A stretch of 38,731 nucleotides of DNA from Gemmatimonadales bacterium (GCA_050012655.1 JBEKGT010000001.1:1-38731), one strand, 5' to 3'; shown: positions 19,371-24,798, counted from the stretch's first letter. Made by a program: numbers and translations. Notes: generated from the letters alone by a model not told the origin.

Positions 19371-19895
19371 ATGATCTGGCCGTTCGCCCACCTCTGGGAC
19401 GGAGCGCCGACGTTCGAGGCGTTCGTGGCGGCGTCGAAGGCGCACGGTGAGCTGTGGGCCTCGGTGCGCCGGACGGCCCGCGTCCCCGACACGCTCGTCG
19501 CCGAGGCCGCTGCCCTTCGCGGAGGGTTCCGCCTCGTCGCCATCGTCGAGGACTGGTGCGGCGACGCCGGCAACACCGTCCCCGTCATCGCCGCCCTGGC
19601 GGAGCGTCTGAGCGGCACCGAACTCCGCCTCGTGTGCCGCGACGAGCACCCCGAGTTGATGGACCGCTACCTCACCGGCACGTCGCGCTCCATCCCCATC
19701 GTCGTCGTCCTCACCGACGCACTGGAGGAGCTGGGCCACTGGGGCCCGCGGCCGGCCGTGCTCCAGGCGTGGGTGATGGAGAAGAAGCGCGCCGGTGCGG
19801 GGAAGGAGCTCTACCCCGAGATCCGTCGGTGGTACGCGCAGGACAAGGGAGAGAGCACCCTGCGCGAGATCATCCAGATCATGGCAGGGGCCTAG
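19371..19895 (+). CDS. Thioredoxin-fold family protein (Thioredoxin_9-like, single-Cys WCGD motif), cytoplasmic
   Basis: ATG at 19371 has GGAAGGGAG upstream. The motif is LVAIVEDWCGDAGNTVPVIAAL. There is no signal peptide. Confidence 0.75.
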   Translation: MIWPFAHLWDGAPTFEAFVAASKAHGELWASVRRTARVPDTLVAEAAALRGGFRLVAIVEDWCGDAGNTVPVIAALAERLSGTELRLVCRDEHPELMDRYLTGTSRSIPIVVVLTDALEELGHWGPRPAVLQAWVMEKKRAGAGKELYPEIRRWYAQDKGESTLREIIQIMAGA

Positions 19896-19969
19896 CGAGC
19901 GCCTCCGCCGCGGCGATATACTCTAGAGAATCACTCATCATTCCGTCCCCATTGCAGGAGGGTGTTTCG

Positions 19970-20572
19970 ATGCGGATGCTCCCCGCCGCCGCCGTCCTGG
20001 CCGCCACGGCCCTGGTCGCGCCGGCGACGCGCGCCCATGCCCAGGCCGCTTCGGCGCCGCAGCCCCCGCTCGAAGTCGGGGCCGTCGCCCCGGACATCGT
20101 GCTGCCGGGCGCCACGCGCTTCGGCGTGCTCCAGCAGCCGGTCCGACTGACCGACTACCGCGGGAAGACGGTGGTCCTCGCGTTCTTCTTCCGCGCACGG
20201 ACGCGTGGCTGAACGATCCAACTGAACGCGTACCGTGATCAGTACGCGCAGATCTTCAGGAGCGGCCGGAACGTGGTGCTGATCGCCATCAGCGCGGATC
20301 CGGACACGATGCAGGCGGCGTGGGCGCGGGAGTCGGAGTTCCCGTTCCTCTTCGCCAGCGACACCGGCTCGGTGGTGGGGCGGCAGTACGGCGCTTTCCT
20401 CCAGCGGCCGAACCTGGTCCTCGACAACCGCAACCTCTTCGTCGTAGGGCCGGATGGCCGCATCGCCTACCGCGCGGTGCCCTTCCGCGAGGTCGACCCG
20501 ACGGCGTACACGGAACTCGGCGCCGCTATCGCGCGCCTCCTGCCGGCGGATTCGACACGGGGCGGGAACTAG
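19970..20572 (+). CDS. Secreted peroxiredoxin (AhpC/TSA-redoxin family) with an in-frame UGA (codon 81, 20210-20212) at the peroxidatic position; probable selenocysteine peroxiredoxin
   Basis: ATG at 19970 has AGGAGGG upstream. The signal peptide is MRMLPAAAVLAATALVAPATRAHAQ. Track ORFs ending at 20212 and starting at 20273 are in the same frame (20273-19454=819=3x273). The joined reading is GKTVVLAFFFRARTRG-[UGA]-TIQLNAYRDQYAQIFRSGRNVVLIAISADP. This fits the Prx PxxxTxxC spacing with UGA in place of Cys. A SECIS-like hairpin starts 10 nt downstream. Confidence 0.7.
20222..20259 (+). promoter_or_regulatory. SECIS-like RNA hairpin directly 3' of the in-frame UGA
   Basis: The structure is CUGAA-CGCGUAC-[CGUGAUCA]-GUACGCG-(CAGAUC bulge)-UUCAG. 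It has a perfect 7-bp upper stem, a 5-bp lower stem and a G-containing 8-nt apical loop. It begins 10 nt after UGA 20210-20212. Confidence 0.6.
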
Positions 20573-20649
20573 GGCATTCCCTCTTCGGGGACCCCCTTGA
20601 TCGAAGGGCCGTCCTTCCGTCCGGACACCCACAAGCGCTGAAAGACCAT

Positions 20650-20676
20650 CCCTGCCGGGAACCCGACCCGGCAGGG
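20650..20676 (+). terminator. Perfect 10-bp hairpin downstream of the peroxiredoxin gene (candidate terminator, no U-tract)
   Basis: CCCTGCCGGG (20650-20659) pairs with CCCGGCAGGG (20667-20676) around a 7-nt loop. It lies about 78 nt after the stop at 20570-20572. Confidence 0.4.
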
Positions 20677-20722
20677 AGTGTATGGTGGGTATATCCGACA
20701 TAATCGGTCCCCTTTGAGATAG

Positions 20723-20911
20723 TCAGACTCCATCTGCGACAGCGGCCAGCTCGCCTCGCTCAGCTCCGGGGGCACGGATTCCTACGGCTACGGCGGTGGT
20801 GGCATGACGGTGGGCGGGACCTTCCAGCGCGCCTTCGCCAGCCCAGGGACACACACCTATCACTGCGCCAACCACCCGGGCATGACGGGGACGATCGTCG
20901 TGACGCCCTGA
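20723..20911 (+). pseudogene. C-terminal remnant of a cupredoxin (plastocyanin/azurin-like type-1 copper protein)
   Basis: The frame ending at TGA 20909-20911 reads ...GGGGMTVGGTFQRAFASPGTHTYHCANHPGMTGTIVVTP*. It carries the C-terminal Cys-x2-His-x3-Met copper-ligand loop. It is closed upstream by TAG at 20720-20722. It lacks the N-terminal His ligand region, a signal peptide and a plausible start. Confidence 0.45.
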
Positions 20912-20953
20912 GAGTTCCCGCCTGTGAGCGAAGCGGGGCAGTGATGGATGCAC

Positions 20954-20982
20954 GACGGGCCCGGCGCGATGCCGGGCCCGTC
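20954..20982. terminator. Perfect 12-bp hairpin between convergent units (candidate bidirectional terminator)
   Basis: GACGGGCCCGGC (20954-20965) pairs with GCCGGGCCCGTC (20971-20982) around a 5-nt loop. It lies between the cupredoxin remnant end (20911) and the tlpA-like 3' end (21008). Confidence 0.5.
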
Positions 20983-21007
20983 ACGCGTCAGGCGGCGCGG
21001 GACAGCG

Positions 21008-21583
21008 TCAGCGCAGCGCGCGCGCGATCGCCGCTTCGAGGTCCTGGTCGGGGACGATGCCGGTGTACGCCACCTTTCCCTGCCGGTCGAGGAGGACGAC
21101 GTAGCTCGTGGCCGGCGTATCGAACGCGCGCACGGCGCTGCCGTTCCCGTCCCAGAGCACCCGGCCTGCCGGCAACGGATGCGCGTCCACGTGCCGCTTC
21201 ACCGACGCCCTGGTCTGGTTCACCCCCACGGCGACGACCACGAAGTCCACCTGGCTTCCGTGGCGCTGGAACGCCGCCCTCATCCGCGGCTCGAGGGCCG
21301 CGCAGTTGGTGCACCAGGTGGCCCAGAACTCGAAGAGCACCGACTTGTGCCCCCCCCCGACGAACGGCGCGAGGTCCGCGGGCCGGCCGTCGAGGTCCTC
21401 GATCGTGACCGGGTGCACGGCGGCGCCGGCGGCGAGGCCGACCTGCTCGTCCTGCGCGCGTGCCGCCCCCGGCAGCACCGTCGCCGCGAAGCACAGTGCC
21501 ACCGTGAGCAAGAGGATGCGCCCGGAGTCGCCTCTGACCTCTGACCTCTGACGACTGACGGCTGCCGGCCGCAGGCGTGTCAC
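21008..21583 (-). CDS. TlpA/ResA-like periplasmic thiol:disulfide oxidoreductase (thioredoxin fold, CxxC)
   Basis: It has the WATWCTNC active site and the hydrophobic anchor ILLLTVALCFAATVLPGAA. The proposed start is GTG 21583, which overlaps the ccdA stop (GTGA). An internal TTG or GTG near 21510 is also possible. The rest of the 406-aa track ORF overlaps ccdA out of frame. Confidence 0.8.
   Translation of the reverse strand: MTRLRPAAVSRQRSEVRGDSGRILLLTVALCFAATVLPGAARAQDEQVGLAAGAAVHPVTIEDLDGRPADLAPFVGGGHKSVLFEFWATWCTNCAALEPRMRAAFQRHGSQVDFVVVAVGVNQTRASVKRHVDAHPLPAGRVLWDGNGSAVRAFDTPATSYVVLLDRQGKVAYTGIVPDQDLEAAIARALR
21531..21558 (-). repeat. Heptanucleotide tandem repeat: (TCAGAGG)x3 perfect plus one degenerate unit (minus-strand reading)
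   Basis: The plus strand reads CCTCTGA CCTCTGA CCTCTGA CGACTGA. The repeat lies in the 5' end or leader of the tlpA-like gene. Confidence 0.6.
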
Positions 21584-22344
21584 ATCACCCTCCCCATCTG
21601 CACGAAGTAGTACTCCGCCATCCCGAGCAGGACGACGCCCGCGAGCCGCTTCACCCACACCATCCACCGCCCCGCCCGCGGCAGCGCCGCCACCGTCCCC
21701 GAGAAGAGACCGACCACCACCAGCAGCGCGGTCATACCGAGCGAGAAGACGAACAGATACGCGAACCCCAGCGCCGCGCTCCGCGTCGTCCCCACCCACG
21801 TCAGCACCGCCGCGAACGCTGGCGCGCCGCACGGCGCCGCGACGAGGCCGGAGGTGGCCCCCATCGCGAACACCCCCGCATACGATCCGCCGGCGAACCG
21901 CCCCGCCCACGCCATGAGCCGCTGCGGCGCCTCGACGGGGAAGACGTCGAGGAGTGCTAGCCCGAACACCAGCAGCAGGTTCCCGATGGCGAAGCGCGCC
22001 CACGGGTTGGCGCTCACCGTGCCGAAGAGCGAGCCCGTCATCCCCGCGAGGAGGCCGAGGGTGGCGTAGAGGAGCGCGAGACCGAGGACGTAGGTCAGCG
22101 TGAGCGCCACCCGGCGGCGCCAGGCCACCCCGCTGTCCGCCGCCTGGTCGCTCGGTGCGTCCGTGCGTCCGTGCGTCTGTGCGCCTGCGAGGATCCCGGC
22201 CGTGATCGGGATCATCGGGTAGATGCACGGCGTGAGGCTCGTCGCGAGGCCCGCGAGGAAGAGTGCGCCGAAGGCCGCGACCGGGTGGCCGGAGAGGCTC
22301 GCCGAGACCTGCGCGAGGAGGACGGTGGGTATGGCGAGGGTCAC
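21580..22344 (-). CDS. ccdA: Cytochrome c biogenesis / thiol-disulfide electron transporter CcdA (DsbD transmembrane-domain family)
   Basis: GTG start at 22344. It has about 6 TM helices and the two conserved Cys motifs, LTPCIYPMIPI and VAAPCGAPAF. Confidence 0.85.
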   Translation of the reverse strand: MTLAIPTVLLAQVSASLSGHPVAAFGALFLAGLATSLTPCIYPMIPITAGILAGAQTHGRTDAPSDQAADSGVAWRRRVALTLTYVLGLALLYATLGLLAGMTGSLFGTVSANPWARFAIGNLLLVFGLALLDVFPVEAPQRLMAWAGRFAGGSYAGVFAMGATSGLVAAPCGAPAFAAVLTWVGTTRSAALGFAYLFVFSLGMTALLVVVGLFSGTVAALPRAGRWMVWVKRLAGVVLLGMAEYYFVQMGRVM

Positions 22345-22441: not shown

Positions 22442-23668
22442 TCAGTATGCCAGGCTCAGCGCGGTCGTGAAGGAGACGTGCGCGTCGGGGCTCCAGCCGA
22501 CGTCGAAGCCGAAGAACGTCCCGCGTCCGATCTGGAGCAGGGCCCCGACGCCGCCGCCGGCGTGCAGGTGGTCGCTCGCGAACGTCTCGCCGCTGATCCA
22601 TACGCGCCCCACGTCGGCGAAGACGAGGAACCAGAGGCGCACCGGCGTCGTCGGCGTGACCAAGAAGTCCCAATTGCGGTAGCGCAGGTCCGCGCTGAGC
22701 AGCGCCTTGTTCGGAGCTGAGAAGCGCCCCGGCAGGGACGCGCGCAGCGTCGTCACTCCGCCGAAGCCGTCCTCCGGGCGCCAGCTGGTCATCCGCTCGT
22801 CCGCCACGTAGAAGGGGATGGCGCCGCGCGAGATCTCCACGTTCTGCCGGAACGCCAGCGACGTGAACTCGGTGATGGGGACGAACTCCCGCATGCCGAG
22901 GGCGTAGCGCGTGTAGTCGAGCCTCCCGAGTCCGCCCTTGAGCCCGCGTGCCACCAGCGCCTCGACGAAGACCCCCTTGGATGGGGACGACTCCTCGTCG
23001 CGCGTGTCGAAGAGCAGGCCGCCGCGCACCTCGAGGCCGTCCGTGGCGCCGGTGTCGAGCGGCACGCCGGCGGCGAGGTCGTCGGCCAGCTTCGAGCGGC
23101 GGCCCGCGAGCGGCAGCGCCCGATAATGCCGGAATTGCGCACCCACCAGGAGATGCAGCGGGCCCGCCAGCTGGCGGCGCACCGCGACGAGGCCCGTGGT
23201 ACGCAGGAGGGAGTAGGTCGAGTACGCCTTGCCGTACCGGCTGTCGAGCGAGTCGGCCACCGCGCTGCGGTTGCCGAGGCCGAAGTACGGCGCCCGCTGC
23301 TCGCGCACGGAGCCGGCCATCAGCAGCAGCCGCCACCCGTGCCAGCGCCCCTCCTCGTCGAAGACCAGTTGGGCGCCCCGCGTGCCGCTGGTGGAGATGA
23401 TGGCATTAGGCTCGATCGAGATGCCGACGGGGACCGGGCCCGGCGGCGACGCCTTGCGCCACCCGCCCGACAGGGACGCGCCGAGTCCTTCGAGGGCGTT
23501 GTACGAGGGGAAGGGGATGAGGTAGAAGCTCCAGTAGTCGCTGCTCGGCGCCGCCTGCGCGCGACTGGCGGCGGGGGCCGCAGTGGCAGCGAGCACGAGC
23601 GCCGCGAGTCCGAGCAGGGTCCGCGGCGCCCGGTCCATCCATCGGCTCAGGGCTTCAGCCGTCGCCAT
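22442..23668 (-). CDS. Omp85/BamA-TamA family outer-membrane beta-barrel protein (no POTRA region)
   Basis: I trimmed the ORF to ATG 23668 (alternative ATG 23638), giving the signal peptide RTLLGLAALVLAATAAPAASRAQA. The C-terminal barrel resembles the bacterial surface antigen family (LRYRNWDFL..., GGGVGALLQIGRGTFFGFDVGW) and ends in an aromatic residue (..SLAY). The longer track ORF runs into the upstream gene. Confidence 0.7.
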   Translation of the reverse strand: MATAEALSRWMDRAPRTLLGLAALVLAATAAPAASRAQAAPSSDYWSFYLIPFPSYNALEGLGASLSGGWRKASPPGPVPVGISIEPNAIISTSGTRGAQLVFDEEGRWHGWRLLLMAGSVREQRAPYFGLGNRSAVADSLDSRYGKAYSTYSLLRTTGLVAVRRQLAGPLHLLVGAQFRHYRALPLAGRRSKLADDLAAGVPLDTGATDGLEVRGGLLFDTRDEESSPSKGVFVEALVARGLKGGLGRLDYTRYALGMREFVPITEFTSLAFRQNVEISRGAIPFYVADERMTSWRPEDGFGGVTTLRASLPGRFSAPNKALLSADLRYRNWDFLVTPTTPVRLWFLVFADVGRVWISGETFASDHLHAGGGVGALLQIGRGTFFGFDVGWSPDAHVSFTTALSLAY

Positions 23669-23715
23669 GGCGAAGGCGGTGTACGGTCCGTGGGTGCGCG
23701 GTGCGCCGGTTCCCC

Positions 23716-24798
23716 CTACCGCCGTGGCGGCCGCTCGAACAGGTACGCGGCGTCCACCAACCGCGCCTCGGTGCCGTCGCAGACGGCGAACTTGGTGCCG
23801 GAGTACAGCCCCGCGCCCCCGAACTGCCCGCGCTTGTTGATGGCGTAGAAGTTGAGGTCGAACTTGGGCTTCCCGTCGGGGCCGATGAGGCGGGGTTCCG
23901 ACGTCGCCATCACGCGACGCAGCGTCTCGAGGCAGGCGTCGGTCGGAGCGAGCCCGCGCCGCATCCCCTCCACCGTCATGAAGCCGCCGCACACCTTGAT
24001 GTTCGACTCGCCGCGGCCGGTTGAGCCCGCCGCGCCGATGTCGTTGTCGGTGTACTCCCCTGCACCGACGATCGCGGAGTCGCCGACCCGCCCGGGGATC
24101 TTCCACGCCAGTCCGCTGGTGGTCGTAACCGACGAGATCTCGCCGCGCGCGTTGATCGCGTCACAGTTGATCGTCCCCGTCGGCCGGCTCGCCGCGGTCC
24201 AGATCTGCTTCCCCGCCGGCACGTCGAGGTAGTCGTCGTCGGGGTTCAGGTTCGCACGCCAGCGGAGCCACGCCTGCCGCGAGGCCTCCGTCAGCAGGTT
24301 CTCGATCTGGAAGCCGTACGAGAGGGCGAAGCGCTGCGCCCCCTCGCCGACCAGCATGATGTTGTTGGTGTACTTGAGGACCAGCTTCGCCACCTCGCTC
24401 GGCGTCTTGATCCCCTCGAGGCAGCCGACCGCGCCGGCCCGCTTGGTGGGGCCGTGCATGCACGACGCGTCGAGCTGCACGACGCCGTCGGCGTTCGGCA
24501 GCCCGCCGTAGCCGACCGACTGGTCGTTCGGGTCGAGTTCCTGGATCTTCACCCCCTCCACCACCGCGTCGAGGGTGTCCATCCCCTGCTGGATCAGATC
24601 GTAGGCGCGCTGCACGGCGCGCATCCCATTGGCCGATGCGACGACGCACGGGCGCGCGTCCTGGGAACGGCGGACGTGCGGCGCCGGGAAGCCGGAGGCC
24701 TCTGCGGGCCGCGCGGGCGCGGCGGCGAGCGCCCCGACGATCGGCACGGCGGCGGCGCTGCTCTTCACGAAGTCCCGGCGGGTCAGCTGTTCGCTCAC
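23716..24798 (-). CDS. N4-(beta-N-acetylglucosaminyl)-L-asparaginase (glycosylasparaginase, Ntn-hydrolase asparaginase_2 family), Tat-exported
   Basis: It has a twin-arginine signal, MSEQLTRRDFVKSSAAAVPIVGALAAA. Family motifs are present: PTGTINCDAINARGE (autoprocessing Thr region), GRVGDSAIVGAG and GAAGSTGRGE. Confidence 0.85.
   Translation of the reverse strand: MSEQLTRRDFVKSSAAAVPIVGALAAAPARPAEASGFPAPHVRRSQDARPCVVASANGMRAVQRAYDLIQQGMDTLDAVVEGVKIQELDPNDQSVGYGGLPNADGVVQLDASCMHGPTKRAGAVGCLEGIKTPSEVAKLVLKYTNNIMLVGEGAQRFALSYGFQIENLLTEASRQAWLRWRANLNPDDDYLDVPAGKQIWTAASRPTGTINCDAINARGEISSVTTTSGLAWKIPGRVGDSAIVGAGEYTDNDIGAAGSTGRGESNIKVCGGFMTVEGMRRGLAPTDACLETLRRVMATSEPRLIGPDGKPKFDLNFYAINKRGQFGGAGLYSGTKFAVCDGTEARLVDAAYLFERPPRR

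What the first reader, a model, noticed from the sequence alone, without database searches (positions are those of the whole stretch)
19371..22344. Envelope redox island: CcdA - TlpA-like reductase - exported (Sec) peroxiredoxin - thioredoxin-like protein
**Seen in the sequence.** Within 3 kb there are four elements. One is a cytoplasmic thioredoxin-fold protein (WCGD). One is the signal-peptide peroxiredoxin with UGA. One is a membrane-anchored CxxC thioredoxin (WCTNC, TlpA/ResA type). One is the CcdA membrane electron conduit, with both conserved Cys motifs. The ccdA stop and the tlpA-like start overlap (GTGA), which implies co-translation.

**Established knowledge.** CcdA/DsbD/ScsB-type proteins pass electrons from cytoplasmic thioredoxin to periplasmic TlpA-like proteins. 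In Caulobacter, a TlpA-dependent cell-envelope peroxiredoxin has been described.

**Inference.** A 1-Sec peroxiredoxin has no resolving Cys and needs an external reductant. The neighbouring CcdA-TlpA pair is the obvious candidate. Together they would form a selenium-dependent periplasmic peroxide-detoxification chain.
Basis: partly seen in the sequence, partly recalled or inferred. Interest (0 to 1): 0.6.

Follow-up and report, generated by a model that had tools for sequence, protein, structure and literature searches.

The report
Exported selenocysteine peroxiredoxin with CcdA–TlpA reductase
A soil Gemmatimonadales bacterium encodes a secreted peroxide-destroying enzyme whose catalytic residue is selenocysteine, and across its whole bacterial class this gene usually sits beside a two-gene system that carries electrons across the membrane, which probably recharges it.

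Summary
At 19371-22344 lie four genes:
- a Trx_9 protein (WCGDA);
- a signal-peptide peroxiredoxin with an in-frame UGA (U81);
- a TlpA-like WCTNC thioredoxin;
- a 6-TM CcdA-type DsbD_TM protein, whose stop overlaps the tlpA start (GTGA).

The UGA is a real Sec codon. It is kept in about 140 of the 150 best matches across Gemmatimonadota and aligns with Cys in the few Cys forms. An invariant hairpin follows it (116/116 Sec loci, 0/4 Cys loci; the closing pair covaries). The genome has tRNA-Sec, selD and a selB fragment.

The conserved core is three genes, not four. Prx lies convergent to tlpA-ccdA in 69 of 95 distinct loci (median gap 80 nt) and in 11 of 20 loci from four further families. Cys-type Prx homologues show the same link, twice as a co-directional ccdA-tlpA-prx row. 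Trx_9 is a lineage-specific monothiol neighbour.

No ccm genes lie near the island. A classical CcdA and a better CcmG-like protein sit elsewhere in the genome.

Best reading (about 0.6): a CcdA→TlpA→1-Sec-Prx periplasmic peroxide-reducing chain, a variant of Caulobacter ScsB-TlpA-PprX. Electron transfer is inferred, not shown.

The parts
19371..19895 (+). Trx_9-family thioredoxin-fold protein (174 aa), monothiol WCGDA, with no hydrophobic segment. It is a lineage-specific upstream neighbour and not part of the conserved core.
   Evidence: PF14595 E 6.4e-34. The EDWCGDA[S/T/G] motif is conserved in 13 orthologues. It is adjacent to the Prx in only 5 of 70 loci. No Kyte-Doolittle segment.
19970..20572 (+). 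Exported 1-Sec peroxiredoxin (200 aa) of the BCP/PrxQ-AhpE-like fold. Active site is FFFRARTRG-U81, with conserved R154 and no Cys.
   Evidence: AhpC-TSA E 2e-22. AF2 model has pLDDT 82, with U81 at the start of helix 79-99. Foldseek hits Bcp4, BcpB and AhpE at TMt 0.83-0.85. Orthologue alignment.
19970..20041 (+). Predicted Sec-type signal peptide of the Prx (residues 1-24, cleavage AHA|Q). It has no twin-arginine motif.
   Evidence: Read directly from the sequence. The same n-h-c pattern, ending A-x-A|Q, appears in the orthologues. No predictor was run.
20210..20212 (+). UGA selenocysteine codon (U81) at the peroxidatic position.
   Evidence: The TGA is kept in 36 of 41 matches among relatives and in about 140 of the 150 best phylum-wide matches. 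It aligns with Cys in the Cys forms.
20227..20248 (+). bSECIS-like hairpin starting 14 nt after the UGA. It has a 7-bp stem CGCGUAC/GUACGCG and an 8-nt loop CGUGAUCA.
   Evidence: RNAalifold picks this helix. 99.6% of cells are paired, and the closing pair covaries (CG 23, GC 8, UA 3). The core is present in 116/116 TGA loci and 0/4 TGC loci.
20649..20677 (.). Perfect 11-bp inverted repeat 77 nt after the Prx stop. It may be a terminator for the convergent genes.
   Evidence: It is the only terminator-like site in the region, no more than shuffled sequence gives, so the evidence is weak.
20723..20911 (+). Orphan C-terminal cupredoxin remnant (HTYHCANHPGM copper loop) with no start codon or N-terminal half. 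It is specific to this window.
   Evidence: PF00127 E 0.0025, amicyanin E 2e-5, both below cut-off. Absent from relatives. The same-genus relative has a 1111-aa outer-membrane receptor-like gene at this spot.
21008..21583 (-). Exported TlpA-like thioredoxin (191 aa), active site FWATWCTNC. Proposed direct reductant of the Prx.
   Evidence: Redoxin E 9e-12, Thioredoxin E 1e-8. Nearest solved structures are ResA, pneumococcal Etrx and TlpA. All 88 orthologues keep EFWATWCxxC.
21580..22344 (-). CcdA-type (TM-only, about 6 TM) DsbD-family thiol-disulfide transporter with Cys40 and Cys171. Its stop overlaps the tlpA start (GTGA).
   Evidence: DsbD_TM E 4.8e-43. NCBIfam DsbD and TsoB hits cover the TM core only. 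Hydrophobic segments. Orthologues are always next to tlpA.

Best explanation
This is a periplasmic, selenium-dependent peroxide-reducing module in a Gemmatimonadales bacterium.

Proposed mechanism:
1. The Prx is made with Sec at UGA81, directed by the hairpin 14 nt downstream together with SelB and tRNA-Sec.
2. It is exported unfolded through the Sec translocon and its signal peptide is cleaved.
3. In the periplasm the selenolate reduces H2O2 or an organic hydroperoxide and becomes a selenenic acid.
4. The mature protein has no Cys, so a partner must recycle it. The first Cys of the exported TlpA-like CxxC protein attacks, forming a Se-S mixed bond. The second Cys resolves it, leaving oxidised TlpA.
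5. The CcdA-type membrane protein re-reduces TlpA, using electrons from cytoplasmic thioredoxin.

Shown here: the Sec codon, the SECIS-like hairpin, the Sec machinery, the Prx fold and catalytic T/U/R residues, the absence of a resolving Cys, the export signals, and the conserved gene linkage.

Inferred: every electron-transfer step, the substrate, and the cytoplasmic donor.
For: Sec:
- An in-frame TGA lies at the Cys-aligned position in 36 of 41 relatives' matches and about 140 of the 150 best matches across the phylum.
- Cys stands at the same column in the Cys forms.
- The hairpin is invariant with a covarying closing pair. It is present in 116/116 Sec loci and absent from 4/4 Cys loci that encode nearly the same peptide.
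- tRNA-Sec is found by both Rfam and ARAGORN. selD is present, as is a selB N-terminal fragment. selA is present in 5/5 relatives.

Prx:
- Pfam hit, AF2 model and Foldseek matches.
- T/S78 is kept and R154 is invariant.
- Mature Sec forms are mostly Cys-free, and the Cys forms also have a single Cys.

Linkage:
- The convergent Prx|tlpA-ccdA arrangement occurs in 69 of 95 distinct loci with a median gap of 80 nt, and in 11 of 20 loci from four other families of the class. The outer flanks are not conserved.
- Cys-type homologues show the same link: convergent with a 4-nt overlap, and as a co-directional ccdA-tlpA-prx row in two genomes.

A dedicated pair:
- The genome also has a classical CcdA (C161) and a better CcmG-like protein (C4; WCAPC, GVPESF). 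The classical CcdA is found in 37 of 41 relatives.
- No ccm gene lies in any of about 145 loci.

Precedent: ScsB-TlpA-PprX was shown experimentally in Caulobacter (PMC3322552).
Against: - The Prx and tlpA-ccdA are convergent, so they are not co-transcribed here.
- 26 of the 95 loci lack the convergent arrangement, and several lineages keep the ccdA-tlpA pair elsewhere, next to unrelated genes. Two of those 26 carry the co-directional ccdA-tlpA-prx row, and one has an insertion between Prx and tlpA.
- One 98%-complete genome has Sec-Prx and TlpA but no island-type CcdA.
- The ccm clusters of this genome lack ccmG, and most TlpA orthologues carry WCPxC, the pattern of E. coli CcmG as I recall it. 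A role in cytochrome c maturation or with other clients is therefore not excluded.
- Related genomes are not independent samples.
- There are no expression or biochemical data.
Confidence: 0.6

Rival explanations
1. The CcdA-TlpA pair is a general or differently aimed periplasmic reductant, for example the CcmG-equivalent of the system I cytochrome c maturation pathway, or a donor for Msr- or Dsb-type clients. On this reading the Sec-Prx is only a long-standing neighbour and is reduced by something else.
For: - The ccmABC and ccmEFH clusters of this genome have no ccmG.
- Most TlpA orthologues have WCPxC, like E. coli CcmG (from memory).
- The nearest solved relatives are ResA and the pneumococcal Etrx proteins, which serve cytochrome c maturation and MsrAB.
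- The pair persists away from the Prx in several lineages.
- The orientation is convergent.
Against: - A better DsbE/CcmG-like protein (56 bits against 17.5) and a classical CcdA lie elsewhere in the genome, and the classical CcdA is present in 37 of 41 relatives.
- No ccm gene is near the island in about 145 loci.
- The adjacency is kept across at least seven families while the outer flanks change.
- The adjacency holds for Cys-type Prx homologues too, twice co-directionally.
Confidence: 0.27
2. The TlpA-like protein works in copper-centre assembly, as Bradyrhizobium TlpA does by reducing ScoI and CoxB. The Prx-like protein would then be an accessory of that process.
For: - A cupredoxin remnant lies between the Prx and tlpA in the window.
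- One Cys-type Prx homologue (P0022) lies about 1.5-3 kb from SCO1/SenC and Caa3_CtaG genes, with an MFS gene between.
Against: - The cupredoxin remnant is specific to this window and truncated.
- No Sco or Cox genes were noted in the ORF lists of the loci inspected, but they were not searched for.
- The NCBIfam TlpA equivalog scores 36 bits against a cut-off of 230.
Confidence: 0.05
3. The TGA is a true stop, making the gene a pseudogene or two fragments, or an assembly error. In that case there is no selenoprotein.
For: - Public gene calls split the gene into 113-116-aa fragments, or read the codon as W or L.
- selA was not found in this 85%-complete assembly.
- The local fold energy is unremarkable (z = 0.03).
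- Rfam has no match.
Against: - The same TGA occurs at the same codon in more than 100 independent assemblies, with conserved coding sequence on both sides.
- It pairs with Cys in homologues.
- The hairpin is invariant and covarying, and occurs only in the TGA forms.
- tRNA-Sec, selD and selB are present, and selA is present in relatives.
Confidence: 0.02

Closest known systems
Caulobacter crescentus ScsB-TlpA-PprX cell-envelope peroxide reduction pathway (Cho et al. 2012, mBio, PMC3322552)
   Same: A DsbD-family membrane electron transporter feeds an exported TlpA-like thioredoxin, which reduces a signal-peptide-bearing peroxiredoxin of the BCP/PrxQ type.
   Different: - The transporter here is a TM-only CcdA type, not ScsB with its N-terminal periplasmic domain.
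- The Prx uses selenocysteine and has no resolving residue, whereas the paper discusses the position of PprX's resolving cysteine.
- The canonical Pro of PxxxTxxC is Phe or Tyr in 97% of Sec forms.
- The genes are physically linked here.
- Nothing has been tested biochemically here.
Selenocysteine peroxiredoxins (Prx, TxxU family; PrxU of Eubacterium acidaminophilum, Söhling et al. 2001, cited in PMC13188914)
   Same: An AhpC/TSA-fold peroxidase with Sec at the peroxidatic position in a TxxU motif, decoded through a bacterial SECIS just after the UGA.
   Different: - It scores only 47.6 bits against the PrxU equivalog cut-off of 270.
- It carries a signal peptide.
- It lacks the active-site Pro.
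- It is linked to CcdA-TlpA.
- It occurs in aerobic, high-GC Gemmatimonadota.
Mycobacterium tuberculosis AhpE (1-Cys Prx) and archaeal/bacterial BCP (Bcp4, BcpB)
   Same: These are the closest solved structures by sequence and fold. AhpE is a 1-Cys enzyme (title of PDB entry 1xxu), so from general knowledge of 1-Cys Prxs it needs an external thiol reductant.
   Different: These relatives lack signal sequences (from memory, not checked here), use Cys, and have different reductants.
CcdA-Etrx-MsrAB2 of Streptococcus pneumoniae and CcdA-ResA / CcdA-HCF164 pathways
   Same: A TM-only CcdA passes electrons to an extracytoplasmic TlpA/ResA-like thioredoxin that serves an oxidative-stress or maturation client. 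The Etrx proteins are among the nearest solved relatives of the TlpA here.
   Different: The client there is methionine sulfoxide reductase or apocytochrome c, not a peroxiredoxin, and no selenium is involved.

Membership tests
Peroxiredoxin (AhpC/TSA, PF00578) | Profile match above the curated cut-off, and a thioredoxin fold with the peroxidatic residue at the start of helix alpha2 | tested here: met
   79.8 bits against a cut-off of 26. In the AF2 model U81 lies at the N-terminus of helix 79-99. Foldseek gives TMt 0.83-0.85 to BCP and AhpE.
Peroxiredoxin (AhpC/TSA, PF00578) | Active-site motif PxxxT/SxxC plus a conserved Arg | tested here: inconclusive
   T78 (T or S in orthologues), U81 at the Cys position and invariant R154 are present. 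The Pro at -7 is F74 here. Across Sec forms it is F 85, Y 27, P 2, S 1, I 1, while the Cys forms keep Pro.
Bacterial selenoprotein | In-frame UGA that aligns with Cys in homologues | tested here: met
Bacterial selenoprotein | SECIS hairpin a short distance 3' of the UGA, with G/U in the apical loop | tested here: met
   The stem starts 14 nt after the UGA and the loop is CGUGAUCA. It is invariant in all Sec loci, the closing pair covaries, and it is absent from Cys loci. SelB binding cannot be tested here.
Bacterial selenoprotein | Sec machinery in the genome (selA, selB, selC, selD) | tested here: inconclusive
   tRNA-Sec at 74.7 bits with anticodon TCA. selD at 207 bits, cut by a contig end. 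A selB N-terminal fragment at a contig end. selA was not found in this 85%-complete MAG, but is present in 5/5 relatives, including the same genus.
PrxU equivalog (NF040737) | Score above the NCBIfam equivalog cut-off | tested here: not met
   47.6 bits against 270. This is a different Sec-Prx lineage.
CcdA / DsbD family | DsbD_TM profile match with one conserved Cys in each half of the TM core | tested here: met
   147 bits. The Cys are C40 in TPCIYP and C171 in APCGAP.
CcdA / DsbD family | CcdA architecture: TM core only, without the periplasmic alpha and gamma domains of DsbD or ScsB | tested here: met
   The protein has 254 aa. The DsbD and TsoB profiles match only their TM part, positions 174-391. 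The hydropathy scan returns seven overlapping windows that merge into about five hydrophobic stretches; I read six TM helices from the sequence.
TlpA-like thioredoxins (TlpA/ResA/CcmG superfamily) | Extracytoplasmic thioredoxin fold with WCxxC | tested here: met
   Redoxin, AhpC-TSA and Thioredoxin hits. WCTNC here, and EFWATWCxxC in 88 orthologues. There is one N-terminal hydrophobic segment.
TlpA-like thioredoxins (TlpA/ResA/CcmG superfamily) | Equivalog-level identity with TlpA, ResA or DsbE/CcmG | tested here: not met
   TlpA 36 against 230 bits, ResA 50 against 170, DsbE 17.8 against 123. It belongs to the superfamily only.
ScsB-TlpA-PprX type envelope peroxide pathway | Exported Prx, exported TlpA-like protein and DsbD-family transporter encoded together or co-occurring | tested here: met
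   Adjacent in 69 of 95 loci and in 11 of 20 further loci.
ScsB-TlpA-PprX type envelope peroxide pathway | Transporter is ScsB, with its N-terminal periplasmic domain | tested here: not met
   It is a TM-only protein of 254 aa.
ScsB-TlpA-PprX type envelope peroxide pathway | Demonstrated electron flow from transporter to TlpA to Prx | not testable with these tools
   This needs redox trapping and enzyme assays.
Thioredoxin_9 (PF14595) | Profile match | tested here: met
   117 bits. The motif is CxxA, not CxxC, in all orthologues.

The most novel reading that the evidence does not exclude
Class Gemmatimonadetes widely maintains a selenoenzyme that is exported unfolded through the Sec translocon. 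It would work in the oxidising periplasm as a Cys-free 1-Sec peroxidase with a remodelled active site (Pro replaced by Phe or Tyr). A dedicated CcdA-TlpA relay would recharge it through a selenenylsulfide intermediate. That would be the first selenium-based envelope peroxide defence, and a natural case of CcdA electrons being spent on peroxide removal.
Probability: 0.5. Interest if true: 0.65.

Novelty: new variant of a known kind. Interest (0 to 1): 0.5.

Why it matters
Envelope peroxide defence in bacteria rests on very few characterised cases, and PprX is the paradigm. I know of no described selenoprotein in that role.

This module would extend the known clients of CcdA-type transporters. 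It gives a concrete, widely conserved partner pair for testing how a 1-Sec or 1-Cys peroxiredoxin is recycled outside the cytoplasm. It also offers a natural Sec/Cys/Pro-swap series for asking what Sec buys a peroxiredoxin.

In practical terms, public gene calls truncate this gene or misread it as W or L. Selenoproteome and antioxidant inventories of Gemmatimonadota, an abundant soil phylum, therefore miss it.

Tried and rejected
- **Rfam scan of the region.** No family matched. Nothing in the library matched this hairpin, so this is uninformative.
- **Single-sequence folding of the UGA flank.** Energy was not exceptional (z = 0.03). Support for the hairpin comes from conservation and covariation.
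- **Promoter and terminator scan.** No promoter-like site, and one hairpin, which is no more than chance gives.
- **Trx_9 as the cytoplasmic electron donor.** Rejected as part of the module: it is monothiol and adjacent only in part of one family.
- **Cupredoxin remnant as a functional clue.** It is specific to this window, and the same-genus relative has a large outer-membrane receptor gene there instead.
- **Island TlpA as the missing CcmG.** Weakened by a better DsbE-like gene on C4 and a classical CcdA on C161, and by the absence of ccm genes near any island. Not excluded.
- **Alternative redox partners beside the Sec-Prx where tlpA-ccdA is not adjacent.** None is evident.
- **Whole-genome scan for other in-frame TGA candidates.** Of 41 hits, most are adjacent genes that happen to be in frame. 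One further convincing Sec-Prx turned up on C342, and a WCQU candidate on C10 looks spurious.

Full report
**What is there.**

The window comes from a high-GC Gemmatimonadales MAG of 418 contigs, 85% complete.

- Trx_9-family protein, 19371-19895 (+): PF14595, E 6e-34, motif EDWCGDA.
- AhpC/TSA peroxiredoxin, 19970-20572 (+): interrupted by TGA at 20210-20212.
- TlpA-like thioredoxin, 21008-21583 (-): motif FWATWCTNC.
- DsbD_TM protein of 254 aa, 21580-22344 (-): Cys in TPC40IYP and APC171GAP.

The ccdA stop and the tlpA GTG overlap as GTGA on the minus strand. Between the Prx and tlpA lie a perfect 11-bp inverted repeat (20649-20677) and a start-less C-terminal cupredoxin remnant (20723-20911).

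**The UGA encodes selenocysteine.**

- Read with TGA=U, the Prx is a 200-residue protein with the active site FFFRARTRG-U81-TIQ.
- In 41 related genomes, 36 of 41 matches carry one in-frame TGA. In every aligned orthologue it stands at this codon.
- Across 301 Gemmatimonadota genomes, 244 have the gene. About 140 of the 150 best matches have the TGA.
- The four orthologous loci without a TGA have Cys at exactly this column. So do full-length Cys forms in public protein collections.
- A 7-bp stem with an 8-nt loop (CGCGUAC-CGUGAUCA-GUACGCG) starts fourteen nucleotides after the UGA. RNAalifold selects it on 36 sequences.
- 99.6% of cells in that stem pair, and the closing pair covaries: CG 23, GC 8, UA 3.
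- The core of the hairpin is present in 116 of 116 TGA loci. It is absent from 4 of 4 TGC loci, which encode nearly the same A-Y-R-D-Q-Y peptide with other synonymous codons. The constraint is therefore on the RNA, not the protein.
- The genome has a tRNA-Sec (74.7 bits, anticodon TCA), selD and a SelB N-terminal fragment at a contig end.
- selA is missing from this incomplete assembly. It is present in all five relatives tested, including the same genus.

I take the selenoprotein as established, at about 0.95.

**What kind of Prx.**

- The AF2 model (pLDDT 82) puts U81 at the first turn of helix 79-99.
- The best structural matches are BCP/PrxQ proteins and the 1-Cys AhpE, at TMt 0.83-0.85.
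- T/S78 is kept and R154 is invariant.
- The mature protein has no Cys. This holds for most Sec orthologues, and the Cys forms also have a single Cys. The family is therefore of the 1-Cys/1-Sec type and needs an external reductant.
- The 'universal' Pro of PxxxTxxC is Phe or Tyr in 112 of 116 Sec forms, but Pro in all Cys forms.
- All orthologues start with a short, positively charged, hydrophobic signal ending A-x-A|Q. Most lack a twin-arginine motif. I read this as export through the Sec translocon. It is read from the sequence, because no predictor was run.
- The protein is not an equivalog of the known PrxU (47.6 bits against 270).

**The partner pair.**

- The 254-aa membrane protein is CcdA-like in architecture. 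It is a TM core only, and the DsbD and TsoB profiles match only their TM part.
- The TlpA-like protein belongs to the TlpA/ResA/CcmG superfamily but reaches none of the equivalog cut-offs.
- Its nearest solved relatives are ResA, the pneumococcal Etrx proteins and TlpA.
- Its 88 orthologues all keep EFWATWCxxC, mostly WCPIC or WCPLC. Their N-terminus looks like a cleavable signal ending A-x-A|Q-D/E, so 'membrane-anchored' is uncertain.

**Is the linkage real?**

- I collected 109 distinct Prx loci from related genomes and from one-genome-per-species contigs. Of these, 95 have at least 1.8 kb downstream of the Prx.
- In 69 of those 95, tlpA-ccdA follow immediately in convergent orientation. The median gap is 80 nt, and 60 loci have a gap of 200 nt or less.
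- In the same-genus relative a 1111-aa outer-membrane receptor-like gene has been inserted between them.
- In 20 loci from four further families of the class, 11 have the same arrangement, one of them with a tandem Prx duplicate.
- The outer flanks are not conserved. Trx_9 precedes the Prx in only 5 of 70 loci, and the Omp85-like gene upstream of ccdA is confined to the window's family.
- The link does not depend on selenium. A Cys form (59% identity) is convergent with TlpA and DsbD_TM genes, with a 4-nt overlap.
- In two genomes a more distant exported Cys-Prx (35-40% identity, FYPRDFTKGC) is co-directional, as ccdA-tlpA-prx.

**Counter-examples.**

- Several lineages keep ccdA-tlpA elsewhere, followed by a LigT-like gene, with the Sec-Prx at another locus.
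- One Cys form lies near SCO1/CtaG genes.
- One 98%-complete genome has Sec-Prx and TlpA (after ispG) but no island-type CcdA.
- One 95%-complete genome lacks both the Sec-Prx and the island-type CcdA. It keeps the classical CcdA and the second Sec-Prx described below.

**Is the pair simply the cytochrome c reductant?**

- The genome uses system I: ccmABC on C15 and ccmEFH on C139. No ccmG lies in those clusters.
- It also has a classical CcdA (SPCVLP...TPCIGP) on C161. A membrane-anchored WCAPC/GVPESF protein on C4 scores far better against DsbE, at 56 bits against 17.5.
- The classical CcdA is present in 37 of 41 relatives alongside the island type, which is present in 39 of 41.
- No CcmB, C, E, F or H homologue occurs in any of about 145 loci around the island.

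A second role for the pair cannot be excluded.

**Comparison with what is known.**

- Sec-containing Prx (TxxU) is a recognised selenoprotein family (review PMC13188914).
- An envelope pathway of DsbD-family transporter, TlpA and exported Prx was shown in Caulobacter as ScsB-TlpA-PprX (PMC3322552).
- I found no paper describing an exported Sec-Prx, or one linked to CcdA/TlpA, in four full-text searches. This is absence from that library only.

The module is thus a new variant of a known kind. It differs in having a CcdA-type transporter, a 1-Sec catalytic residue, a remodelled active site and tight gene linkage, and it is widespread in one phylum.

**Verdict.**

It is not supported for the Trx_9 gene.
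- The mechanism remains an inference from gene context and precedent, at about 0.6.

The scan had already noted the Sec-Prx on this same stretch (e1-3313718) and the cupredoxin fragment (e1-3313720). I re-derived both independently.

Noticed in passing
G000:C342:1101-1532 (-), TGA at 1397: A second selenocysteine peroxiredoxin candidate of BCP type, with the canonical motif FYPGNDTPG-U and no evident signal peptide. The in-frame TGA is kept in all 16 relatives that have the gene. One of them is the genome that lacks the exported Sec-Prx.
   Followed up: partly
window 20189-20191 (codon F74, -7 from U81): The 'universally conserved' Pro of the Prx motif PxxxTxxC is Phe or Tyr in 112 of 116 Sec forms. 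It is Pro in every Cys form seen (4 loci plus the 10 database proteins fetched that carry Cys at the site). The swap appears to go together with Sec use.
   Followed up: partly
window 20723-20911: A truncated cupredoxin C-terminus (copper loop HTYHCANHPGM) with no start or N-terminal half, found only in this window. The same-genus relative (L048 328-3663) has a 1111-aa outer-membrane receptor-like gene between the Prx and tlpA, so this spacer is a rearrangement hotspot.
   Followed up: partly
P0005, P0007, P0029 and other hits: Public gene calls of this family are wrong in three ways. Some are 113-116-aa C-terminal fragments that start after the UGA. Others are full-length products with W or L written at the Sec position. 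Annotation pipelines therefore do not recognise the selenoprotein.
   Followed up: partly
L207 4483-5740 (G308:C3): Two tandem copies of the exported Prx lie next to tlpA-ccdA in one closed genome of another family.
   Followed up: no
L066 9073-9761 (G015:C13:92072-92763): The island-type ccdA is split into two overlapping frames. This is either a frameshift or an assembly error.
   Followed up: no
G000:C139:1696-4805 and G000:C15:13489-15306: The system I cytochrome c maturation genes form two clusters, ccmE-F-H and ccmA-B-C, neither with a ccmG. The best CcmG-like gene (WCAPC, GVPESF) sits alone on C4:21429-22007, between a ribulose-phosphate-epimerase-like gene and a tsaD-like gene (named by eye from the ORF translations, not searched).
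   Followed up: partly
window 21531-21558: Heptamer repeats (TCAGAGG on the sense strand of tlpA) lie inside the poorly conserved 5' end of the tlpA frame. The first 20 or so codons after the GTG at 21583 are not conserved in orthologues, so the true start is uncertain.
   Followed up: no
window 22442-24106: The Omp85-like gene just upstream of ccdA on the same strand is syntenic with ccdA throughout the window's own family but not beyond. It may be co-transcribed with ccdA-tlpA in this lineage.
   Followed up: no
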